Shown here: in pieces, positions 34,618 through 42,036 of the stretch | Numbering within the stretch: the first letter of the stretch is position 1 | How the letters are laid out: each line of letters begins with the position of its first letter | Origin: Candidatus Calditenuis fumarioli | GTDB lineage: Archaea; Thermoproteota; Nitrososphaeria_A; Caldarchaeales; Calditenuaceae | Direction: 5' to 3' | DNA: 64,000 nt | NCBI GenBank assembly: GCA_030059665.1 | Contig: JANVYR010000001.1 | Location: 39,203-103,202, forward strand | Position numbers and translations under genes: made by a program | The notes under the pieces: model-generated | What the model was told of the DNA's origin: nothing | Database searches by the model: none | The model's input: the letters and a program-made list of their open reading frames with translations, nothing else

Positions 34618-37335
34618 TTACGGAGACCTGAGGCGTTTGAGCAGCTCGATGCTGGCGAAGGTGACCACTCCTCCGAGAACGCACCACAGCACGTCTTCCG
34701 GTGTCGGCACAGTGAGGTGGAGCAGCTCCCTCGTAACCGGAACCGATACGAGGACCGTGATCAGGATAAGCTCCCAGATCACCGAGAGCACCAACCACCT
34801 GTGCGGCCTCACCCTGAAGACCGTATGCCTCAGTGACCTGCAGTTGAGGGCGACGACTAGCTCGATCGCGATGAATAGCAGGAATAGCCTGGTCCTGGCC
34901 GCATCGATGCCGTTCGGGAGGGCGAAGTAGAACGCGGCTATCAGCAGGGGCGACTCGACCACGACCGCCCTCACCAGGAAGCCGACGACCTCGGAGCTCA
35001 GCACTCCTTCCCCCCTCCTCGGTGGAGGTCTCCTCATCAGGTCCGGATCCGGTGGGCTGACGCCCAGCGCGAGGGCCGGCAATCCGTCCGTGGCCAGATT
35101 GATGTACAGGACGTGGACCGGCAGAAGGGCCAGCGACTCCTCTCCCGAGTATCCGAGGGCCCTCAATATCACGAGAGTCGTGACGGAGAGGACGACGATC
35201 TCGACGAGGTTCGCCTGGAGCAGGTACGCCAGGTACTTCTTGATGTTGTCGAAGATCCACCTCCCCAGCTCGATCGCCTTCACCAACGTCGACAGGCTGT
35301 CGTCCGTGAGTATGATGTCGGAGGCCTCCTTCGCCACCTCGGTCCCCCTCATCCCCATTGCAACACCTATGTCGGCCCTCTTCAGGGCTGGAGCGTCGTT
35401 GACCCCGTCACCGGTCATCGCAACGATGTAGTCCTTACGCTTCCAGGCCTCGACGATCTTCAGCTTCTGGGACGGCGTGGTCCTGGCGTAGACCCTGACG
35501 CGCTCCACGACCTCTGCCAGCTCTTCGGCCGACATCCGCTCGAGCTCCTTCCCCGTCAGGACGAGGTCCACGTCGATCCCGCACTCCCGTGCGATCGAGA
35601 CGGCTGTGAGCCTGTGGTCACCGGTTATCATGACAGGTATGACGCCTGCCGATTTGGCGGAGGATATGGCCTCAATCGCCCCTGGCCTCGGCGGATCGAT
35701 CATGCCCACGAGCCCCAGCAGGACCAGCGAGGACTCGGGGTCGTCGTCGGGCCCCGCCATCTCCTTGTAAGCCACCGCCAGCACCCTCATCCCCTCGGAG
35801 GCCAGCTGCTCGCTCACCTGAAGGACCCTCATCCTCTCGGCCTCGTCGAGCGGCCTCACCACACCGTCGCGCATGACCCGATCGCACCTAGAGAGAACGA
35901 CCTCGACCGCGCCCTTCACGTGAGAGACCAGCTTTCCATCGACCAGGTTGACCGTGCTCATCATCATCCTGTCGCTGGTGAAGGGCCTCTCCGAGACGCG
36001 CGGCGCAGCAGACCTGACCTCCTCGGGATCGATCCCTGTTCTCTTCGCGAGGACGAGGAGTGCCACCTCCGTCGGGTCTCCCGAGTGCTGGTGTTTGCCG
36101 TCAGGGGAGTGAAGCCTCGCGTCGTTGCAGAGGACGACCGCCCTGAGCAGGCTCCTGAGCGTGGGAGATTCCGGGGTGTAGGCCGAGCCGTCCTCTGAGA
36201 CCAGACCACGATCGGAGTCCCTCAGCAGCCTGTCGTCGACGTAGACCGCCCTCACCACCTGCTCACCCTTGGTCAGGGTGCCCGTCTTGTCGAAGCACAT
36301 CACCTGCGTTGATCCGAGGCTCTCGACCGCCGAAAGCCTCCTGACCAGCGCTCCGTGCTTGGCGAGCGTCCAGGCACCGATGGCGAGGGACGCGGTCACG
36401 ATCGCCGGCAGCGCCTCCGGAACTGCGGCCACCGCGAGGGCGACACTGAACAGGAAGACCTCCAGCAGGAAGCCGAGGCTCGCGTCACCTGCGATAAGGG
36501 ATTCGATGAGCTCGACGACGAAGAGGACCGCGATGATCGCGAGCGCCAGAATGCCGAACTTTTTGCCGAGGTCCTCCATGCGTGCCTCGAGCGGCGTCCT
36601 CTCCTCCCGCATCTGACCCGTGAACTCGGCGATCCTCCCCAGCTCCGTCGATTTGCCTGTGGCGGTGACCACCGCCTTCCCCTTTCCGGAGACGACGAGG
36701 GTTCCGGCGTAAACCACGTTCACCCTGTCGGCCATCGGCGTCTCCTCAGGCAGGGGGTCTGTCCTCTTGTCGACGGGGACCGACTCACCGGTCAGGGGCG
36801 ACTCGTCCACGCGGAGCCCGACCGACTCTATCACCCGCGCATCGGCAGCCACTATGTCTCCCTCCGACAGCACCAGAACGTCGCCCGGGACCACGTCCTC
36901 AGACGGTATCACCTGGACGGAGCCGTCCCTGAGCACCTTGCACCTGGGAGCCGTCAGCTCCCTCAGCTTCTCCAGCGCGCGCTCCGCCCTGTACTCCTGC
37001 AAAAAGCCCATCACCCCGATGAAGATCAGGATGACGCCGATCACGGCCGCCTCGATCACGTCACCCAGCAGCGCGCTGATCGCGGTCGCAGCCAGCAGTA
37101 TCAGCACCAGCACGCTCCTGTACTGGTTCAGGAAGACCATCACGGGGTTCGGCCGCCTGACCTCGACGATCGCGTTGGGTCCGTGGATCCTCCTCCGGCG
37201 CTCGACCTCCTCGACCCTCAGCCCAGTCGCTGGATCGACGCCGAGCGCCCCGACCACCTCCTCGACCGTCATGCTGTGGTAGGCCCGACGGACCTCCGCC
37301 ATCTCCTCCCCGACCCGGTCCGACGCCCCTCTCAA
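34618..37335 (-). CDS. P-type cation-transporting ATPase (type IIA/IIB-like, Ca2+/cation)
   Basis: 905 aa. TGES, DKTGTLT phosphorylation site, TGDGVNDAPALKRADIGVAMG and ten predicted TM helices. The TTG start is at 37335; an alternative is the internal MAEVRRAYHSMTVEEV 11 codons downstream. Confidence 0.9.
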   Translation of the reverse strand: MRGASDRVGEEMAEVRRAYHSMTVEEVVGALGVDPATGLRVEEVERRRRIHGPNAIVEVRRPNPVMVFLNQYRSVLVLILLAATAISALLGDVIEAAVIGVILIFIGVMGFLQEYRAERALEKLRELTAPRCKVLRDGSVQVIPSEDVVPGDVLVLSEGDIVAADARVIESVGLRVDESPLTGESVPVDKRTDPLPEETPMADRVNVVYAGTLVVSGKGKAVVTATGKSTELGRIAEFTGQMREERTPLEARMEDLGKKFGILALAIIAVLFVVELIESLIAGDASLGFLLEVFLFSVALAVAAVPEALPAIVTASLAIGAWTLAKHGALVRRLSAVESLGSTQVMCFDKTGTLTKGEQVVRAVYVDDRLLRDSDRGLVSEDGSAYTPESPTLRSLLRAVVLCNDARLHSPDGKHQHSGDPTEVALLVLAKRTGIDPEEVRSAAPRVSERPFTSDRMMMSTVNLVDGKLVSHVKGAVEVVLSRCDRVMRDGVVRPLDEAERMRVLQVSEQLASEGMRVLAVAYKEMAGPDDDPESSLVLLGLVGMIDPPRPGAIEAISSAKSAGVIPVMITGDHRLTAVSIARECGIDVDLVLTGKELERMSAEELAEVVERVRVYARTTPSQKLKIVEAWKRKDYIVAMTGDGVNDAPALKRADIGVAMGMRGTEVAKEASDIILTDDSLSTLVKAIELGRWIFDNIKKYLAYLLQANLVEIVVLSVTTLVILRALGYSGEESLALLPVHVLYINLATDGLPALALGVSPPDPDLMRRPPPRRGEGVLSSEVVGFLVRAVVVESPLLIAAFYFALPNGIDAARTRLFLLFIAIELVVALNCRSLRHTVFRVRPHRWLVLSVIWELILITVLVSVPVTRELLHLTVPTPEDVLWCVLGGVVTFASIELLKRLRSP

Positions 37336-37387
37336 AACGTTACCCCAAATCTTCGCTGATGGACCTTTCCGCCGTCGCCTCGCTGCG

Positions 37388-37401
37388 TTAAACTTTAAGG
37401 C
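37388..37401 (+). promoter_or_regulatory. Putative archaeal BRE/TATA promoter for tRNA-Gly
   Basis: gttaaactttaagg is centred about 30 nt upstream of the tRNA 5' end. Coordinates are approximate (plus or minus 2 nt). Confidence 0.5.
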
Positions 37402-37425
37402 TCGAGGAAGGAGCTCCGATCCGGC

Positions 37426-37499
37426 GGCCGTCGTCTAGCCTGGTAGGACGGCGGGGCCCCGGCCCGCAGATCCCGGGTTCAAATCCCGGCGGCCGCATA
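37426..37499 (+). tRNA. tRNA, anticodon CCC (Gly?), 74 nt, no intron; atypical anticodon loop
   Basis: Manual cloverleaf:
- Acceptor gcggccg/cggccgc, U8.
- D-stem gtct/ggac with a GG-containing D-loop.
- Anticodon stem gcggg/cccgc with loop gcCCCgg.
- T-arm ccggg-ttcaaat-cccgg, discriminator A.
Position 33 is C and position 37 is G, both unusual, so the isotype is tentative. Coordinates are plus or minus 2 nt. Confidence 0.6.
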
Positions 37500-37567
37500 T
37501 GCTTCTAGAAACGACATCCGTGAAGGTTCTAGAGGCGAGCTGAGCGCCGTTGCTCGGTCGTTAAAGA

Positions 37568-38938
37568 ATGCTTAAAGATGAGCAAACAAGGAGTGCGAAA
37601 TGGATGTCGGAACGAGAAGTAGACCGAAGGCGACACGAATTAAAAGCAAAGAAAGCAAGGGAATTAAAACCAGATAAACTAACGTTAGAACCTCGAAGGA
37701 TCTACGTAAAGGACTTCGGCCCTATCAGGGAGGCTGATATTGAGTTGGGTAAGTTAACAATACTCATGGGACCGAATAACACAGGCAAGACCTTTACAGC
37801 TGCGCTGATACCTGCTCTAGAAGGTCTGATCATTAGCCTAACAATTATTGCAAGTGTGCCAATTTTCAAGTCTGATGAAAAGGAATATGAAAGATTTCTC
37901 AAAAACAGATTTAATGAGATTGTAATTAACATATATTCGGTTGATGATCCGAGACAGCTTATCAGACGAGGTTCTGATAATACAGTTTTAAGCTATTGGT
38001 TAAGTCCTATTGAAGTTTTGAAAGGAGATCACCAATTAAAAATAGAGTTCGATAGAACAGGTGGGATGACTTTTGATTTAGATGGGCTTAGGGAGTTGAT
38101 CAATAATAAAATAGCCCCCCTGTTATCTCCTGTTGTTTTCATACCTGCCGAGAGGGCAGGAATAATGAGGACCTACAAGCAGCTGCTCAGACTTCACTTA
38201 GAGACGAGCTGGTCTTTTGTTCCTCCATCGCTCAGGCAAAAGGTCGTGGAACTGTTAGGCAGCAAAGTGCGGCTTCCTGGACTCGTGAGGATGCTACTTG
38301 ACGAGATACTCAGCATAGAGAGGTTCACCTTAGAGGAACGGCAGAGGTCCGATGTAGGAGGAGCACTAGAAGTGCTGGAGGAAGAAGTTCTGCGAGGAAG
38401 GTTAGAAATGGGGGAAGACCTTTCGGTAAAGTATCACGAGGCGGCAGCTGAGAACCCAATAGACCTGATTAATGCATCCTCCATGGTATCCGAAGTCTCA
38501 GCAATCTACCTGCTGTCTGGAATGTTGAGACGCGGCGGGTGGCTAATCATCGAGGAACCGGAGGCCCATGTCCATCCACGGGGACAGATGGGACTGGCCA
38601 GGTTCATGGCCAGGCTGGTCCGACTCGGCGTGAACGTCGTTGCCACCACCCACAGCGACCTGATAGCGCTCAAGCTGGCGCAGATGGTCGGCCTCGCCAA
38701 ACTAAGCCCAGAGCAGCGGCGCAGTCTCGGGTACCGGGAAGACGAGTACCTCCAGAAGGACGAGCTCGCCCTTTACTTCTTTGAGCCGACGGAGAGCGGC
38801 TCCGTGACAAGGAAGGTGGAGGTCTCGGAGACCGGTGAGGTGGAGGACCTACCAACATATTCTAGAGTTACGGAGGAGATGTACGGTGAAGCCGTCAAAT
38901 TGCTCGAGCTTCATGGGAAAATTCCAAAACTACCTTAA
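37568..38938 (+). CDS. AAA_15/AAA_21-family SMC-like ABC ATPase (OLD/PtuA/GajA/AriA-like ATPase subunit of defence systems)
   Basis: 456 aa, or 444 aa if it starts at the internal MSEREV at 37604, which sits about 28 nt downstream of a TTAAAG TATA-like element. Motifs:
- Walker A: GPNNTGKT.
- Q-loop-like: FIPAERAG.
- Walker B / D-loop: WLIIEEPEAHVHP.
- H-loop: VVATTHS.
- A long helical insert between the ATPase half-sites. Confidence 0.7.
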   Translation: MLKDEQTRSAKWMSEREVDRRRHELKAKKARELKPDKLTLEPRRIYVKDFGPIREADIELGKLTILMGPNNTGKTFTAALIPALEGLIISLTIIASVPIFKSDEKEYERFLKNRFNEIVINIYSVDDPRQLIRRGSDNTVLSYWLSPIEVLKGDHQLKIEFDRTGGMTFDLDGLRELINNKIAPLLSPVVFIPAERAGIMRTYKQLLRLHLETSWSFVPPSLRQKVVELLGSKVRLPGLVRMLLDEILSIERFTLEERQRSDVGGALEVLEEEVLRGRLEMGEDLSVKYHEAAAENPIDLINASSMVSEVSAIYLLSGMLRRGGWLIIEEPEAHVHPRGQMGLARFMARLVRLGVNVVATTHSDLIALKLAQMVGLAKLSPEQRRSLGYREDEYLQKDELALYFFEPTESGSVTRKVEVSETGEVEDLPTYSRVTEEMYGEAVKLLELHGKIPKLP

Positions 38939-39317
38939 ACACAGAAGCTCGGACCTGCAGTTTTACGACTTCGAGAACGCAGTGTTAACTGTGAACGGCG
39001 TGGAGAAAGCTAAGGGCGGGTGCGACTATGCCGTATTATCAAACGAAGGGGAGAACTGCAACCTCATACTCGTTGAGTGCAAGCGCGGACGACTTGGGGT
39101 AAGAGATTTCGAGCAAGGGAAAGCGCAGCTAGAGTGTGGGATCCGCTTCATTTTCAACGCGTTCGGCGAACCGCCTGATTTGGCGGTCCTATGCTGCGAG
39201 AAACTCGATCCTATGGTAACCAAGATTCTACAACTACCCAAAAACCAAAGATTGGTCCATAATGTCCCGCTCATCCGCAAAGGGCTAAAAGAATCCGATT
39301 GTAGATGCTGCCGCTAA
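38913..39317 (+). CDS. Small protein with a PD-(D/E)xK nuclease-like core (candidate effector partner of the ATPase)
   Basis: 134 aa from the internal M (MGKFQNYLKHR...). It overlaps the ATPase 3' end by 26 nt in a different frame. GGCDYAVLSNEGENCNLILVECKRG gives a D ... (18 aa) ... E-x-K pattern with a hydrophobic beta-strand before ExK. The C-terminus is Cys-rich (ESDCRCCR). The track ORF begins 26 codons earlier, with no ATG there. Confidence 0.45.
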   Translation: MGKFQNYLKHRSSDLQFYDFENAVLTVNGVEKAKGGCDYAVLSNEGENCNLILVECKRGRLGVRDFEQGKAQLECGIRFIFNAFGEPPDLAVLCCEKLDPMVTKILQLPKNQRLVHNVPLIRKGLKESDCRCCR

Positions 39318-39383
39318 TGAGATTCGACCTCTTTCTCACTCTCGTGCACTTCAACCGGAAATCTCAACTCGTAGAAATCGTTG

Positions 39384-39472
39384 AGCCCCGGGAGGGATTC
39401 GAACCCTCGACCACCGGCTCACCCGGATCAGGGTCATACGAGGCCGGCGCTCTACCGCTGAGCTACCGGGGC
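39384..39472 (-). tRNA. tRNA-Thr (anticodon CGU) with a 17-nt intron after position 37
   Basis: Minus-strand cloverleaf: acceptor gccccgg/ccggggc, U8, D-arm gctc-agcggta-gagc, anticodon stem ccggc/gccgg with loop cuCGUa + intron tgaccctgatccgggtg + a, variable tggtc, T-arm gaggg-ttcgaat-ccctc, discriminator U. Total 89 nt. Confidence 0.7.
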
Positions 39473-39493
39473 CCTCGGCCGTATCGCCCTACC

Positions 39494-39509
39494 AGTTTGA
39501 ATTTAACCC
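39494..39509 (-). promoter_or_regulatory. Putative TATA box for tRNA-Thr
   Basis: The minus-strand sequence gggttaaattcaaactgg is centred about 30 nt upstream of the tRNA 5' end. Confidence 0.45.
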
Positions 39510-39518
39510 TCAGCCCCG

Positions 39519-39953
39519 TCAACGCCGTCTGGGCCTCGAGAGCCCCCAGCTGACCTTCTTCTCAGGAACAAGCTTGATCACCACCGCCTCGCCCTCGTCC
39601 CAGGGGTCGGCCCGGGCCCACTCGAACCTCTCGTAGAACACCTCCGAGACCCTCCTGAACTCCTCTCCGGAGGTCAGAAGCTCGACGGGCCCCTCGACGA
39701 GGACTGCCCTGTTGGGCTTGTAGACGTCGACGACCAGCGCCGCGTAGGGGTTCCTCTCGAGGTTCCTGTGCTTCTTGGTTCCGGGATCCGTGACCATGTA
39801 GAACGCGCCGTCGAGGTAGACGTAGCAGATCGGTACGACGTGGGGCCTGCACCGCTCGTCGACCGTCGCCAAGCGGCAGAGCTCCATCCTCCTGAGGAAC
39901 TCCAGCTCGGCATCCGTGAAGCTCACCGGGGCCACAACCGTCCTGCCGCACAA
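39519..39953 (-). CDS. Pyridoxamine 5'-phosphate oxidase-like FMN-binding family protein (PPOX class, possibly F420/FMN dependent)
   Basis: 144 aa. ELEFLRRMELCRLATVDERCRPHVVPICYVYLDGAFYM is typical of the PNPOx-like split-barrel family. Confidence 0.7.
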   Translation of the reverse strand: MCGRTVVAPVSFTDAELEFLRRMELCRLATVDERCRPHVVPICYVYLDGAFYMVTDPGTKKHRNLERNPYAALVVDVYKPNRAVLVEGPVELLTSGEEFRRVSEVFYERFEWARADPWDEGEAVVIKLVPEKKVSWGLSRPRRR

Positions 39954-40479
39954 CGGCCTAATACCGCTATCCCGATCCGCGGAGCCGGAAATTCCCGTTT
40001 ATTACGCGGTGGGGAAGTGCTGGGCCGAATTGTGGCTCGAGGAGTTCCGGGAGGGGATGACGCTCTCAACGCGGAGCAGAACCGTTACGCCCTCCGATGT
40101 GGACCTCTTCGCATCGCTCACTTGGGCCGTCAACCCGATCTTCCTCAGCGACGAGGTGGCGAGGTCCAGGGGCCTTCCCGGTAGGGTCGCACCGGGAGCG
40201 CTGACCCTCTCCTACGCGATCGGCCTCCTCTACCAGACCGGAGTCTTCGACCACATACAGGCGCTGACCAGGATATCGGAGGTCGAGTTCAAGTCTCCCG
40301 TAAGGCCTGGCGACGAGATCTCGGTCGAGGCCGAGGTGGTTGAAGTCAGGGAGGTGAGGCAGGACGCCGGTGCGGTCACTTTGAGGTTCAGGGTGCAGAA
40401 CCTCAGCTCCGGAAGGACCTCGCTGACCGGGTCGCTAACCGTCATCGTCCTCAAATCGAGGCCGCAGGGCTCTAAGTGA
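39916..40479 (+). CDS. MaoC-like (R)-hydratase/dehydratase, hotdog fold
   Basis: 187 aa. RTVTPSDVDLFASLTWAVNPIFLSDEVARSRGLPGRVAPGALTLSYAIGLL is the MaoC dehydratase signature. The start is uncertain: it could be at an internal GTG, or the ATG at 39916 overlapping the divergent gene by 38 nt. Confidence 0.65.
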   Translation: MKLTGATTVLPHNGLIPLSRSAEPEIPVYYAVGKCWAELWLEEFREGMTLSTRSRTVTPSDVDLFASLTWAVNPIFLSDEVARSRGLPGRVAPGALTLSYAIGLLYQTGVFDHIQALTRISEVEFKSPVRPGDEISVEAEVVEVREVRQDAGAVTLRFRVQNLSSGRTSLTGSLTVIVLKSRPQGSK

Positions 40480-40550
40480 AAGAGTGCGAGCTCCCACCGG
40501 AATCGGCACTAACCGATTTATCCAGGGCCGGCGACGTGAACACGGAGAGG

Positions 40551-41264
40551 ATGGAGTTCAGGATCAGCCGGATCGCCCCGAGGGCGAAGGTCCTCGTGAC
40601 GGGCCTGCCGGACATGGGGAACGTGGCCGGGATATCGATGGAGGTACTGGTGAGGTCCTGCAACCTCGAGGAGTTCGCATCGGCCCTCGGAGACTGGCCG
40701 CCGTTCGTCACCCACACCGGCAGCATGATCAGGTTCGAGCGGGGTTGGTACAGGTTCTACGGAAGCGACGCCCACGATTTCGTCGCGCTGACCGGGAGCT
40801 ATCAGCCGCCAGAGTCGAACGCGCTTTACGAGCTCTGCAACGCGGTGCTCGACCTGGCCCAGTCGATAGGCGTGGAGACCGTCATCTCGCTCGGCGCAGC
40901 CCACTTCGGCGAGGGCTTCATCGAGAACCCAAGGGTGTTCTTCGCGGCAACCTCCGAGCGGATGGCTGAGAAGGCCAGGCTTCACGGCGCTCTGCCGTTG
41001 CCTGACGAGGGTTACATCACGGGCTACAACGGGCTCATCCACGGCCTCGCGATGGAGCGGGGCATGGAGGGCCTCTGCCTGCTGGGCGAGATCGGGAACC
41101 CGCGAGTCAGGCAGCCGGCCGCGGCCAAGGCCGTCCTCCAGGTCCTCTCCTCGATGCTGAACGTCTCGATCGACTACACCGACTTGGACAGGGAGATAGA
41201 GCAGATGAGAGCGATGAGGGCCCTCAGGAGGTGGAGGAGGGACCAGCCGCCTGGCGTCATGTGA
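40551..41264 (+). CDS. PAC2-family protein (proteasome assembly chaperone-like, PbaA/PbaB-type)
   Basis: 237 aa from the internal M (MEFRISRIAPRAKVLVTGLPDMGNVAGISMEVLV...). This resembles the PAC2 N-terminal G-rich loop. The track ORF starts 25 codons upstream, overlapping the MaoC gene. Confidence 0.5.
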   Translation: MEFRISRIAPRAKVLVTGLPDMGNVAGISMEVLVRSCNLEEFASALGDWPPFVTHTGSMIRFERGWYRFYGSDAHDFVALTGSYQPPESNALYELCNAVLDLAQSIGVETVISLGAAHFGEGFIENPRVFFAATSERMAEKARLHGALPLPDEGYITGYNGLIHGLAMERGMEGLCLLGEIGNPRVRQPAAAKAVLQVLSSMLNVSIDYTDLDREIEQMRAMRALRRWRRDQPPGVM

Positions 41265-42036
41265 GCCGCAGCAGCCTCCTGATCAGGTACCTGAGGTTCC
41301 AGATGGCGAAGGTCAGGACGTCGTTCAGACCGAGCTTGCTCTTGCCCGAGAGGCGCGGCCTGAACCTGATCGGCACCTCGACTATCCTTGCGCCTGCCCT
41401 GAAGTAAGCGGCGAGGGTCTCGACCTGGAAGACGTAACCCTTCGTGGAAGGCGGTATGCCGGAAAGGACCCGGAGGAGCAGCGAGGAGGAGATGGCCCTG
41501 TAGCCGCTGGTGGCGTCCCTCACCCTGACGCCAGTGCAAAGCCTCGCGAGGAGGTTCGCGCCCCTACTGACGATCTCCCTGAGGCCCTGCCCTCCCTCCC
41601 ATCCTCCGCCCTCCACGTACCTGGACCCGATCGCGACGTCCGCCTCTCCGGAGAGAACAGGCATCACGAGCCTCGGAAGGTCTTTTGGGTCGTGGCTTCC
41701 GTCGGCGTCCATCTCGACCAGCACCCGGACCGATTCGTCCTCCTCCAACGCCCTCCGGAAGCCCTCGAGGTAGGCGCTTCCGATCCCGGACTTGGCCGGC
41801 CTCACGATCAGCCTCACGCGCCTCTCGGTGGACATCAGCTGCCTCACCAGCTCCGCGGTACCGTCGGGGCTGCTGTCGTCCACCACCGTCACGGTGCCGT
41901 CGAGTCCAGCCCTATTCATCGCCTCCAGGACCTCGCCGAGGACCCTGAGGACGTTGCCCGCCTCGTTGTAGGTCGGGATGATCACCGCCACCCTTCGCGG
42001 CCCTGCACCCTCTCCACCCGTGCCGGATCCGCCCAA
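41257..42036 (-). CDS. Glycosyltransferase family 2 (dolichol-phosphate mannosyltransferase Dpm1-like)
   Basis: 259 aa. VAVIIPTYNEAGNV, DDSSPDGT, and a DxD-like EMDADGSHDP motif. Confidence 0.8.
   Translation of the reverse strand: MGGSGTGGEGAGPRRVAVIIPTYNEAGNVLRVLGEVLEAMNRAGLDGTVTVVDDSSPDGTAELVRQLMSTERRVRLIVRPAKSGIGSAYLEGFRRALEEDESVRVLVEMDADGSHDPKDLPRLVMPVLSGEADVAIGSRYVEGGGWEGGQGLREIVSRGANLLARLCTGVRVRDATSGYRAISSSLLLRVLSGIPPSTKGYVFQVETLAAYFRAGARIVEVPIRFRPRLSGKSKLGLNDVLTFAIWNLRYLIRRLLRLT

What the first reader, a model, noticed from the sequence alone, without database searches (positions are those of the whole stretch)
37568..38938. Steep intragenic GC gradient in the ATPase gene (about 35% at the 5' end rising to about 60% at the 3' end)
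By eye, the first 600 nt of the gene are A/T-rich (long runs such as aattaaaagcaaagaaagcaagggaattaaaacc). The last third uses genome-like GC-rich codons (ctggccaggttcatggccaggctggtccgactcggcgtg).

A compositional mosaic like this suggests a recent chimeric origin. The ATPase head may have been acquired from a low-GC donor and recombined with a resident or ameliorated C-terminal half, or the gene is under partial amelioration. It could also mark a recombination breakpoint inside a defence gene, where module shuffling is common.
Basis: seen in the sequence. Interest (0 to 1): 0.5.

Follow-up and report, generated by a model that had tools for sequence, protein, structure and literature searches.

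The report
Compositional mosaic in archaeal defence ATPase
The GC jump inside this ATPase gene is real, and it marks a small foreign-looking two-gene defence-type cassette between two tRNA genes of a hot-spring archaeon, where the variable front of the gene is AT-rich and only its most conserved core has the host's composition, a pattern best explained by piecewise recombination and fairly ordinary for defence genes.

Summary
In a window of about 64% GC (host GC3 about 0.87), the only low-GC stretch is a 1.9-kb islet (37498-39382, 48.7% GC) between tRNA-Gly and an intron-containing tRNA. It holds an ABC-type ATPase gene (true start probably 37604) and an overlapping 134-aa gene with a D...ExK nuclease-like motif. 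The GC change is a staircase, not a smooth gradient: GC3 is 0.34 (aa 1-181), 0.58 (182-330), 0.86 (331-415), then 0.38 (416-444), and 0.60 in gene B. Only 255 nt (38594-38848) have host-like codon usage.

The steps follow protein modularity. The AT-rich part is a hypervariable insert (about 27-44% identical to homologues). The GC-rich patch is the conserved Walker B/H-loop core (about 90% identical). The effect is regional, not per site.

Family members show segment-discordant synonymous divergence and an alternative second gene, so module shuffling occurs in this family. For this gene no donor was found, synonymous sites are saturated against all sampled homologues, and the breakpoint test is only suggestive (p about 0.09).

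"Recent" and "resident C-terminal half" are not shown. The system resembles PD-T4-4 and Septu (nuclease plus NTPase). Moderate interest.

The parts
37424..37497 (+). tRNA-Gly(CCC). Its 3' end is the left boundary of the low-GC islet.
   Evidence: ARAGORN; Rfam tRNA 51.2 bits. The composition change point falls at 37497-37561. The same tRNA lies upstream of the P-type ATPase in Ca. Calditenuis sp. L012.
37498..37603 (+). 5' spacer of the cassette (GC 0.48). It has two TTAAAG (TATA-like) boxes at 37561-37566 and 37572-37577, and AAGGAG at 37588-37593, 10 nt before ATG 37604. The promoter and ribosome-binding roles are inferred only.
   Evidence: Sequence read directly. No experimental or comparative test was done.
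37604..38938 (+). ABC-type (AAA_15/AAA_21) ATPase gene, 444 aa. Motifs: Walker A GPNNTGKT 37769-37792, Q-loop PAERAG 38144-38161, Walker B/D-loop LIIEEPE 38543-38563, H-loop ATTHSD 38642-38659.
   Evidence: Pfam AAA_15 58.1 bits (cut-off 32.1) and AAA_21 38.9 bits (cut-off 27). PADLOC PD-T4-4_A E = 4.9e-32. A 444-aa product is called in L001 and L009. AF2 model pLDDT 81; best Foldseek matches are PtuA and Rad50/SMC heads. Motif coordinates.
37604..38146 (+). Segment 1 (aa 1-181): AT-rich, non-host codon usage. It contains the hypervariable insert (aa 61-180). GC 0.385, GC3 0.34, 4-fold GC3 0.26, CAI 0.16.
   Evidence: Identity to homologues is 0.27-0.47 in aa 61-180, against 0.85-0.92 in the core. 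No closer relative was found anywhere.
38147..38593 (+). Segment 2 (aa 182-330): intermediate composition. GC 0.53, GC3 0.58, CAI 0.32.
   Evidence: Closest homologue is L002 (0.82 aa identity).
38594..38848 (+). Segment 3 (aa 331-415): the only host-like patch. GC 0.635, GC3 0.86, CAI 0.62. It is the most conserved part of the protein (H-loop and C-terminal lobe).
   Evidence: Host GC3 is about 0.87 and host CAI 0.63-0.81. About 90% aa identity to type I homologues, but synonymous sites are saturated against all of them.
38849..38938 (+). Segment 4 (aa 416-444 plus stop): GC drops again (0.42, GC3 0.38) although the protein is conserved. It overlaps the start region of gene B.
   Evidence: Third-position identity between homologues is raised here (0.67-0.79, against 0.6 or less elsewhere), as expected for a dual constraint.
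38913..39317 (+). Gene B, 134 aa from ATG 38913 (143 aa from GTG 38886 as annotated at NCBI). It overlaps the ATPase 3' end. It has a putative PD-(D/E)xK-type nuclease motif: GCDYA (39018-39032; motif D at aa 38) and VECK (39072-39083; motif E at aa 55, K at aa 57). GC 0.494, GC3 0.60, CAI 0.29.
   Evidence: ORF. Homologues P0121-P0125. D38, E55 and K57 are invariant in 10 diverse homologues. HSDR_N_2 hits are weak: 5 of 10 members, best E = 0.01, below cut-off, covering the motif region. The AF2 model is unusable (pLDDT 37). No PADLOC or Pfam hit for the window protein itself.
39383..39472 (-). Intron-containing tRNA, probably tRNA-Thr(CGU). Its 3' end is the right boundary of the islet.
   Evidence: ARAGORN reports a tRNA of undetermined type. 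Rfam tRNA 64.7 bits with a 19-nt insertion after the anticodon; the anticodon CGU is my own reading of that alignment. Composition change point at 39385. The same junction is present in L011 at 93% DNA identity.

Best explanation
Identity of the locus (shown). The gene encodes the ABC-type ATPase of a two-gene cassette: the ATPase plus a small overlapping protein with a nuclease-like motif. The cassette forms a 1.9-kb islet of foreign composition between two tRNA genes in a Calditenuis-like archaeon (Caldarchaeales) of about 64% GC.

Likely function (inferred by analogy). The cassette most likely works like other nuclease-NTPase defence pairs. The ATPase would sense infection through its variable insert and use ATP binding and hydrolysis to control the partner nuclease.

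The GC profile (shown). The 'gradient' is a four-step mosaic that follows the modules of the cassette. The hypervariable N-terminal part, the 3' end and gene B have non-host composition. A 255-nt stretch in the most conserved ATPase core has the host's composition exactly.

Origin of the mosaic (inferred). The most likely cause is segmental homologous recombination among diverged alleles of this cassette family. The conserved core is the only part similar enough to recombine with, or be retained from, alleles long adapted to GC-rich hosts. The variable modules come from lineages of lower GC and have spent less time in this host. Shown: the mosaic, its regional nature, its match to conservation, and recombination elsewhere in the family. 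Inferred: that recombination made this particular mosaic, the direction of exchange, and the defence function.
For: - Islet and host: the low-GC islet is bounded by the two tRNAs, and host genes have GC3 of about 0.87.
- Codon usage (CAI) by segment is 0.16 / 0.32 / 0.62 / 0.19 and gene B is 0.29, against host 0.63-0.81. 4-fold GC3 by segment is 0.26 / 0.43 / 0.86 / 0.40, against host 0.82.
- GC3 tracks protein conservation along the gene (Spearman 0.75, p = 5e-5).
- The effect is regional. Sites at least 80% conserved have GC3 of 0.49 in the N-terminal segment and 0.89 in the patch. Within-segment effects in this gene are small and not significant.
- The variable insert defines deep allele types: 20-44% identity between types and 66-87% within them, while the core stays 53-94% identical.
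- Recombination in the family. Pairs such as L039-L050 have synonymous identity of 0.96 in the insert and 0.74 in the middle. L039-L057 have 0.60 in the insert and 0.91 in the core. Five pairs remain significant after Bonferroni correction. One clade carries an unrelated second gene.
- The staircase appears in the clades living in GC-rich hosts (this gene and type I). It is flat where cassette and host compositions are similar (type II).
- A suggestive breakpoint lies at aa 298, where GC3 jumps (raw p = 0.009). The strong grouping with L002 is lost in the C-terminal third.
- System type: PADLOC PD-T4-4_A E = 4.9e-32; PtuA-like fold; D/E/K motif in gene B. PD-T4-4 is described as an AAA_15 ATPase plus a PD-(D/E)xK nuclease (PMC10952713 and bioRxiv 10.1101/2025.07.10.664194).
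- Not an assembly artefact. The same sequence with both flanks is present in three other MAG assemblies at 99.2-99.6% overall identity, with only 0-3 differences inside the islet. A 93% variant shares the tRNA junction.
Against: - No donor allele was found for either the AT-rich or the GC-rich segment. The best relative of the variable region is the family itself at under 45% identity.
- Synonymous sites are saturated against all 51 sampled homologues in all segments.
- The breakpoint test is not significant after permutation (p = 0.094). Quartet analysis of the C-terminal third is unresolved, not discordant (87 against 113 of 200).
- A small site-level GC3-conservation effect exists in pooled type I sequences (0.05-0.10), so selection on codons may contribute.
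- The low-GC clade is below host GC3 in all segments, so the core does not always match the host.
- No empty site or alternative allele at this locus could be retrieved.
- The defence function and the nuclease activity of gene B are untested. The gene B fold prediction failed.
Confidence: 0.55

Rival explanations
1. Selection on synonymous codons at functionally constrained residues (translational accuracy). In a host that prefers GC-ending codons, conserved residues are encoded by preferred codons and weakly constrained residues are not. This would produce the GC3 profile without any recombination.
For: GC3 correlates with conservation in this gene (rho 0.75). The correlation is positive in 45 of 52 family members. 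Within segments, pooled type I sequences show 0.05-0.10 higher GC3 at the more conserved sites.
Against: Within-segment effects in this gene are small and not significant. Equally conserved sites differ by 0.40 in GC3 between segments (0.49 against 0.89). The last 29 codons are highly conserved yet have GC3 of 0.38. The effect needed (0.26 to 0.86 at 4-fold sites) is far larger than accuracy selection usually gives (my own knowledge). The type II clade shows no such profile.
Confidence: 0.15
2. GC-biased gene conversion, or repeated homogenisation, confined to the parts that can still pair with other alleles. The conserved core recombines often within the population and is driven to high GC. 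The diverged insert and gene B cannot recombine and decay towards the AT-biased mutational equilibrium in place. This is a recombination-dependent process, but no foreign donor segment is involved.
For: The pattern is regional and tracks sequence conservation. It recurs in clades living in GC-rich hosts. Recombination is frequent in the family. No donor was found for the AT-rich part. The sister allele L002, in a lower-GC host, has a higher GC3 in the insert (0.52 against 0.31), as if this insert had drifted towards AT.
Against: No direct evidence for biased conversion in these archaea was obtained. The islet is almost invariant among the sampled strains, so no polymorphism data exist to test a fixation bias. 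The boundaries of the patch are sharp.
Confidence: 0.15
3. A recent chimera in which a low-GC ATPase head was joined to a resident, already ameliorated C-terminal half of the host's own gene.
For: The first composition step lies at a domain boundary (aa 181). The host-like patch exists. Module shuffling occurs in the family.
Against: The 3' end of the gene, gene B and both spacers are also non-host-like, so there is no resident half. There are at least three steps, not one. No donor was found. Synonymous saturation gives no sign of recency. The cassette already sits at this locus in a lineage 7% diverged in DNA. The N-terminal 300 aa, including the middle segment, share one phylogenetic affinity.
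Confidence: 0.08
4. Metagenome assembly chimera. Reads from two co-occurring alleles were joined inside the conserved core, so the mosaic exists only in the assembly.
For: The window matches MAG contigs. Many alleles of the family co-occur in hot-spring metagenomes. Conserved cores are typical places for misjoins.
Against: The identical cassette with the same flanks on both sides occurs in three other MAG assemblies, with only 0-3 differences across the islet. An independent ENA assembly has a 93% variant spanning the core, gene B and the tRNA junction. There are three composition steps, not one junction.
Confidence: 0.02

Closest known systems
PD-T4-4 (E. coli anti-phage system of Vassallo et al. 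2022; AAA_15 ATPase plus PD-(D/E)xK nuclease)
   Same: Two-gene nuclease-NTPase architecture. The ATPase matches the PADLOC PD-T4-4_A model best of all defence models (E = 4.9e-32). The partner is a small protein with a D...ExK motif. The system's composition is taken from PMC10952713 and bioRxiv 10.1101/2025.07.10.664194.
   Different: Gene B does not match PD-T4-4_B or any PADLOC or Pfam nuclease model above threshold. The host is an archaeon, and the family was found only in Caldarchaeales/Nitrososphaerota-type hot-spring data. No activity was tested.
Septu PtuA/PtuB and the retron-associated PtuAB
   Same: The predicted ATPase fold is closest to solved PtuA structures (Foldseek E = 1e-13 to 1e-11, probability 1.0). 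Both have a small nuclease partner encoded just downstream.
   Different: The partner is not an HNH nuclease. The NCBIfam PtuA model scores 14 bits against a cut-off of 500. TM-scores are only about 0.4. No retron reverse transcriptase or ncRNA lies nearby.
OLD-family, Gabija GajA and PARIS AriA ATPases (ABC ATPase plus Toprim)
   Same: Same AAA_15/AAA_21 ATPase clan. The only hit by sequence to a solved structure is an OLD-family nuclease (6p74, E = 1.3e-6).
   Different: No Toprim domain in either protein. The effector is a separate small protein.
Shuffling of target-recognition domains in type I restriction HsdS genes, and other defence specificity modules (own knowledge, not tested here)
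   Same: Conserved segments flank hypervariable, compositionally atypical modules. Those modules are exchanged by homologous recombination anchored in the conserved parts.
   Different: A different protein family. Here the role of the variable insert in specificity is only inferred.

Membership tests
AAA_15/AAA_21 ABC-type ATPases (Pfam PF13175, PF13304) | Match to the family models above Pfam's gathering score | tested here: met
   AAA_15 58.1 bits (cut-off 32.1); AAA_21 38.9 bits (cut-off 27).
AAA_15/AAA_21 ABC-type ATPases (Pfam PF13175, PF13304) | Walker A, Q-loop, Walker B/D-loop and H-loop motifs present | tested here: met
   GPNNTGKT (aa 56-63), PAERAG (181-186), LIIEEPE (314-320) and ATTHSD (347-352) are all invariant or nearly so in 25 homologues.
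PD-T4-4 | ATPase component matches PD-T4-4_A | tested here: met
   PADLOC PDLC04033, E = 4.9e-32, covering aa 144-409 of the 456-aa ORF from 37568.
PD-T4-4 | Partner matches PD-T4-4_B (PD-(D/E)xK nuclease) | tested here: not met
   No PADLOC hit for gene B at E up to 1. No PF11645 hit in 10 homologues at E up to 10.
PD-T4-4 | Partner has a PD-(D/E)xK nuclease fold and catalytic triad | tested here: inconclusive
   D38, E55 and K57 are invariant. HSDR_N_2 hits are weak: 5 of 10 members, best E = 0.01, below cut-off. AF2 pLDDT is 37. No similar solved structure by sequence.
PD-T4-4 | Protects cells against phage or virus | not testable with these tools
   Needs an experiment.
Septu (PtuAB) | PtuA-type ATPase | tested here: inconclusive
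   Best fold matches are PtuA chains, but TM is about 0.4 and the NCBIfam PtuA model scores 14.4 bits against a cut-off of 500.
Septu (PtuAB) | HNH nuclease partner PtuB | tested here: not met
   Gene B has no HNH match.
OLD / Gabija / PARIS | Toprim nuclease domain, fused or adjacent | tested here: not met
   No Toprim match in either protein. The islet holds only two genes.
tRNA-targeted integrative element | Insertion next to the 3' end of a tRNA gene | tested here: met
   The 3' ends of both flanking tRNAs face the islet.
tRNA-targeted integrative element | Integrase gene and a direct repeat of the tRNA 3' end (att sites) | tested here: not met
   There are only two ORFs and neither is an integrase. 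No repeat of either tRNA end lies within 37300-39600. In 26 other loci the cassette is not next to a tRNA.
Horizontally acquired compositional island | Base composition and codon usage differ from the host's | tested here: met
   GC 0.487 against 0.637. GC3 0.52 against 0.87. CAI 0.26 against 0.63-0.81.

The most novel reading that the evidence does not exclude
The cassette may belong to an undescribed, archaea-restricted (hot-spring Caldarchaeales) nuclease-NTPase immune family built for modular exchange. In this reading, a conserved GC-rich ATPase core acts as the recombination anchor. Around it, an AT-rich sensor insert and alternative effector genes are swapped between lineages. The effectors would be either a mini PD-(D/E)xK protein or an unrelated Cys-rich protein. 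The GC3 staircase would then record how long each module has been in its present host.
Probability: 0.3. Interest if true: 0.55.

Novelty: new member of a known kind. Interest (0 to 1): 0.35.

Why it matters
If the mosaic reading is right, the locus is a compact natural example of how defence genes in thermophilic archaea renew their variable modules by recombination anchored in a conserved ATPase core. Synonymous composition would then serve as a clock for each module's time in the host. The locus also flags a widespread two-gene ATPase-plus-mini-nuclease cassette in Caldarchaeales that is uncharacterised and comes with an alternative effector. Antiviral systems of this group are almost unstudied. 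The phenomenon itself, a compositionally atypical variable module in a defence gene, is familiar from bacteria, so this refines known ideas and does not overturn them.

Tried and rejected
- Word-index protein search with the 116-aa variable region returned nothing, not even the 99% identical P0001. This is a limit of the tool. The exhaustive HMMER search replaced it and found only weak matches.
- Exact look-up of the 456-aa ORF product failed because the annotated product is 444 aa.
- A genome-contig scan for the cassette found no relative among GTDB species representatives. A viral-contig scan found none either.
- The search for an empty site failed. Relatives found through the neighbouring P-type ATPase either lack synteny or have a contig that ends 16 nt past tRNA-Gly.
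- No att-type repeats. Terminator-like sites: none; sigma-70-type promoter-like sites: 2 found, against about 1 expected by chance. No Rfam family other than the two tRNAs.
- Recent gene conversion of the GC-rich patch from a sampled allele is rejected. The best nucleotide identity there is 0.79-0.81, with saturated third positions.
- A paralogue in the window as conversion donor is rejected. There is none.
- Similarity of the AT-rich insert to the low-GC clade of the family is rejected (12-27% identity).
- Amino-acid composition as the cause is rejected by 4-fold GC3.
- The gene B structure prediction was too poor for a fold search.
- A profile search of gene B against PDB sequences gave only a chance hit.
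- A literature search for intragenic GC mosaics in defence ATPases gave nothing specific.
Full report

Yes. The window averages about 0.637 GC, and every 1-kb bin lies between 0.59 and 0.67 except those covering 37-39 kb. In 200-nt windows GC falls from 0.65 at 37300-37499 to 0.345-0.455 over 37500-38100. It climbs to 0.625-0.63 at 38500-38800, drops again to 0.465-0.545 over 38800-39399, and returns to 0.645 at 39400.

The change is present at synonymous positions.
- 50-codon GC3 runs from 0.24 to 0.84.
- At 4-fold sites of A, G, P, T and V codons, GC3 is 0.26 for aa 1-181 and 0.86 for aa 331-415. The host value is 0.82.
- Shuffling codons within the gene never reproduced the range of 0.60 or the positional trend (0 of 20000 shuffles).
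- Genuine host genes in the window have GC3 of 0.79-0.91 and ranges of 0.10-0.24. The few ORFs with larger ranges are over-extended 5' ends with nonsense translations.

**2. The shape of the profile**

It is a staircase that reverses, not a smooth gradient. The best segmentation of GC3 by BIC has four segments. Codon adaptation (CAI), measured against 33 host genes with mean 0.73 and range 0.63-0.81, is given alongside.

| Segment | Coordinates | GC3 | CAI |
|---|---|---|---|
| aa 1-181 | 37604-38146 | 0.34 | 0.16 |
| aa 182-330 | 38147-38593 | 0.58 | 0.32 |
| aa 331-415 | 38594-38848 | 0.86 | 0.62 |
| aa 416-444 | 38849-38938 | 0.38 | 0.19 |
| gene B | 38913-39317 | 0.60 | 0.29 |

The whole 1.9-kb stretch 37498-39382 is compositionally foreign (GC 0.487). 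Inside it, a 255-nt patch has exactly the host's composition.

**3. What is at the locus?**

The islet is bounded by two tRNA genes whose 3' ends both face it.
- On the left is tRNA-Gly(CCC), 37424-37497, on the + strand.
- On the right is an intron-containing tRNA, 39383-39472, on the - strand. I read its anticodon as CGU (Thr) from the Rfam alignment.

The islet holds two overlapping genes on the + strand.

Gene A is an ABC-type ATPase.
- Pfam AAA_15 and AAA_21 both score above their gathering scores.
- It has Walker A GPNNTGKT, Q-loop PAERAG, Walker B LIIEEPE and H-loop ATTHSD.
- The product annotated in near-identical MAG contigs is 444 aa, starting at ATG 37604. AAGGAG lies 10 nt upstream, and two TTAAAG boxes lie further up (their roles are inferred).
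- Its best match among defence models is PD-T4-4_A (E = 4.9e-32).
- An AlphaFold model built on 25 homologues (pLDDT 81) is closest to PtuA of Septu and retron systems, then to Rad50 and SMC heads.
- By sequence the only solved relative is an OLD-family nuclease.

Gene B is 134 aa from ATG 38913, or 143 aa from GTG 38886 as annotated at NCBI.
- It has no family match of its own.
- D38, E55 and K57, in GCD...(L/I/V)ECK, are invariant in ten diverse homologues.
- Five of the ten give weak sub-threshold hits to the PD-(D/E)xK domain HSDR_N_2 over just that region.
- Its structure prediction failed (pLDDT 37), so the nuclease assignment is tentative.

PD-T4-4 is described in the literature as an AAA_15 ATPase with a PD-(D/E)xK nuclease, one of many nuclease-NTPase defence pairs. 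This cassette works like that class on present evidence. It fails the sequence test for the PD-T4-4 B component.

**4. Host and distribution**

The neighbouring P-type ATPase is 82% identical to that of Candidatus Calditenuis sp. and 66-70% identical to other Caldarchaeales MAGs. The window matches GCA_038741315.1 (L009) at 99.2% DNA identity, with an identical ATPase protein.

The ATPase has over 300 homologues at 43-69% identity. Nearly all come from hot-spring metagenomes, and the named ones are Nitrososphaerota or Caldarchaeales. None occurs in viral contigs or GTDB species representatives.

The A+B pair sits among unrelated housekeeping genes in different genomes. No integrase and no tRNA lies nearby in 26 other loci. 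In most loci with adequate flanking sequence it is lower in GC than its surroundings. The window shows no att-type repeats. This is the behaviour of a small mobile defence-type islet, although how it moves is unknown.

**5. What the steps correspond to**

Identity of this protein to 119 homologues, by sixths of its length, is 0.43, 0.27, 0.48, 0.68, 0.85 and 0.78. In 20-codon blocks, GC3 tracks conservation (Spearman 0.75, p = 5e-5).

The AT-rich part contains a hypervariable insert between Walker A and the Q-loop (aa 61-180). This insert defines deep allele types. Identity is 20-44% between types and 66-87% within them, while the C-terminal core stays 53-94% identical.

An exhaustive search with the insert alone against 1.84 billion representative proteins found nothing better than E = 3e-9, and nothing closer than the family itself. 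Its best relative is L002 at 38-47% identity. It does not resemble the insert of the family's own low-GC clade (12-27%). No donor can therefore be named.

**6. Regional process or site-level process?**

The process is regional.
- Residues at least 80% conserved across the family have GC3 of 0.49 in segment 1, 0.57 in segment 2 and 0.89 in the patch.
- Within segments, more- and less-conserved sites of this gene differ little: 0.38 against 0.31, 0.56 against 0.60, and 0.93 against 0.80. None of these is significant.
- Pooled type I sequences show a small site-level component of 0.05-0.10.
- The last 29 codons are conserved yet AT-rich. There the third positions are unusually conserved between homologues (0.67-0.79), which fits the overlap with the start of gene B.

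Selection for accurate codons at constrained sites may contribute, but it cannot be the main cause.

**7. Is the profile peculiar to this gene?**

Partly. Among 52 non-redundant coding sequences, GC3 of the insert is below that of the core in 46 of the 51 homologues. This gene is the extreme case, with 0.31 against 0.80 (difference 0.49; the next largest is 0.30).

| Clade | Host GC3 | GC3 by segment (1 / 2 / 3 / 4) |
|---|---|---|
| This gene | 0.85 | 0.34 / 0.58 / 0.86 / 0.38 |
| Type I | 0.77-0.86 | 0.56 / 0.66 / 0.75 / 0.54 |
| L002 | 0.62 | 0.52 / 0.65 / 0.68 / 0.52 |
| Type II | 0.64-0.74 | about 0.63-0.68 (flat) |
| Low-GC clade | about 0.60 | 0.35 / 0.39 / 0.41 / 0.51 |

(All values.)

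The staircase appears where the cassette lives in a GC-rich host. There the conserved core has reached host composition and the variable modules lag behind. Neutral amelioration acts alike on all synonymous sites and cannot produce that. Either the segments have different residence times, or a recombination-linked bias acts only where alleles can still pair.

**8. Is there recombination?**

In the family, yes. Synonymous third-position identity differs sharply between segments of the same pair, and in both directions.
- L039-L050: 0.96 in the insert and 0.74 in the middle.
- L039-L057: 0.60 in the insert and 0.91 in the core.
- Five pairs are significant after Bonferroni correction.

Type II ATPases also carry an unrelated second gene of 117-204 aa, some with a Cys-rich tail, in place of the PD-(D/E)xK-like one.

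For this gene the evidence is only suggestive.
- aa 1-300 group with L002 in 200 of 200 bootstraps. aa 301-444 are unresolved between L002 and type I (87 against 113).
- A maximum chi-square scan places the best breakpoint at aa 298, where GC3 jumps. There are 36:16 informative sites before it and 5:11 after it (raw p = 0.009, permutation p = 0.094).
- Synonymous sites are saturated against every sampled homologue in every segment, so any exchange was either old or involved unsampled alleles.
- A 93% identical variant with the same tRNA junction exists in another study's assembly (L011), so the cassette has been at this site for some time.

**9. Artefact?**

Unlikely. Three other MAG assemblies carry the same islet with both flanks, with 0-3 differences across the islet. 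L011 independently spans the core, gene B and the tRNA.

**10. Verdict**

A recombinational mosaic aligned with module boundaries is the best explanation (confidence about 0.55), and module shuffling is shown in the family. 'Recent', 'low-GC donor' and 'resident C-terminal half' are not shown. A biased-conversion or in-place decay variant and a small codon-selection component remain open.

The system is a new, uncharacterised archaeal member of the known nuclease-NTPase class. It is PD-T4-4-like in its ATPase and PtuA-like in fold. It is not a demonstrated member of either family.

Interest is moderate. This is a clean example of a familiar phenomenon in a little-studied lineage.

Noticed in passing
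L039-L044, L047-L058, L064, L065 (gene just downstream of the ATPase, e.g. L048:7308-7811): Type II members of the ATPase family carry an unrelated second gene (117-204 aa, starting MSAIRIVTGKEG... or MNASSVRVV...). Some have a C-terminal CxxC-rich tail. It replaces the PD-(D/E)xK-like gene B. Only chance-level Pfam hits to zinc-ribbon families were found.
   Followed up: partly
window 37498-39382 compared with L001, L009, L010: Among strain-level MAGs the islet has 0-3 differences in 1.9 kb. The surrounding 20 kb averages about 8 per kb (166 in 20.4 kb against L009). The cassette is therefore unusually uniform between strains. A recent sweep, a transfer between strains or strong constraint could each explain this.
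   Followed up: partly
window 40000-41500: A cluster of 27 differences in 1.5 kb (MaoC-like and PAC2 genes) is shared by L001, L009 and L010 against the window. This suggests a recombination tract specific to the window's strain.
   Followed up: no
L012:1-95 (Ca. Calditenuis sp. PSP.bin.8): The contig of the closest named relative ends 16 nt past the 3' end of the same tRNA-Gly. Those 16 nt already differ from the window. This looks like an assembly break exactly at the islet boundary, as expected for a variable hotspot.
   Followed up: partly
window 38864-38938, and the same region of homologues: Third-codon positions of the last 25 or so ATPase codons are much more conserved between homologues (0.67-0.79) than anywhere else in the gene. 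This coincides with the overlapping start of gene B.
   Followed up: partly
window 39383-39472 (- strand): This tRNA has a 19-nt insertion after the anticodon, which looks like an archaeal intron. ARAGORN could not type it. From the Rfam alignment I read it as tRNA-Thr(CGU).
   Followed up: partly
window 37637-37678 and 38800-38846: Two short imperfect tandem duplications, each with 24-nt spacing. One lies in the lysine-rich N-terminal tail (GAATTAAAAGCAAAGAAA / GAATTAAAACCAGATAAA). The other lies near the C-terminus (CTCCGTGACAAGGAAGGTGGAGG / CTCGGAGACCGGTGAGGTGGAGG).
   Followed up: no
L056 and L078: Two loci, one on a 337-kb contig, match the ATPase at 65-66% identity. Their E-values are much weaker than those of similar hits, and they were not recovered as intact full-length ORFs. 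They may be frameshifted or decaying copies.
   Followed up: no
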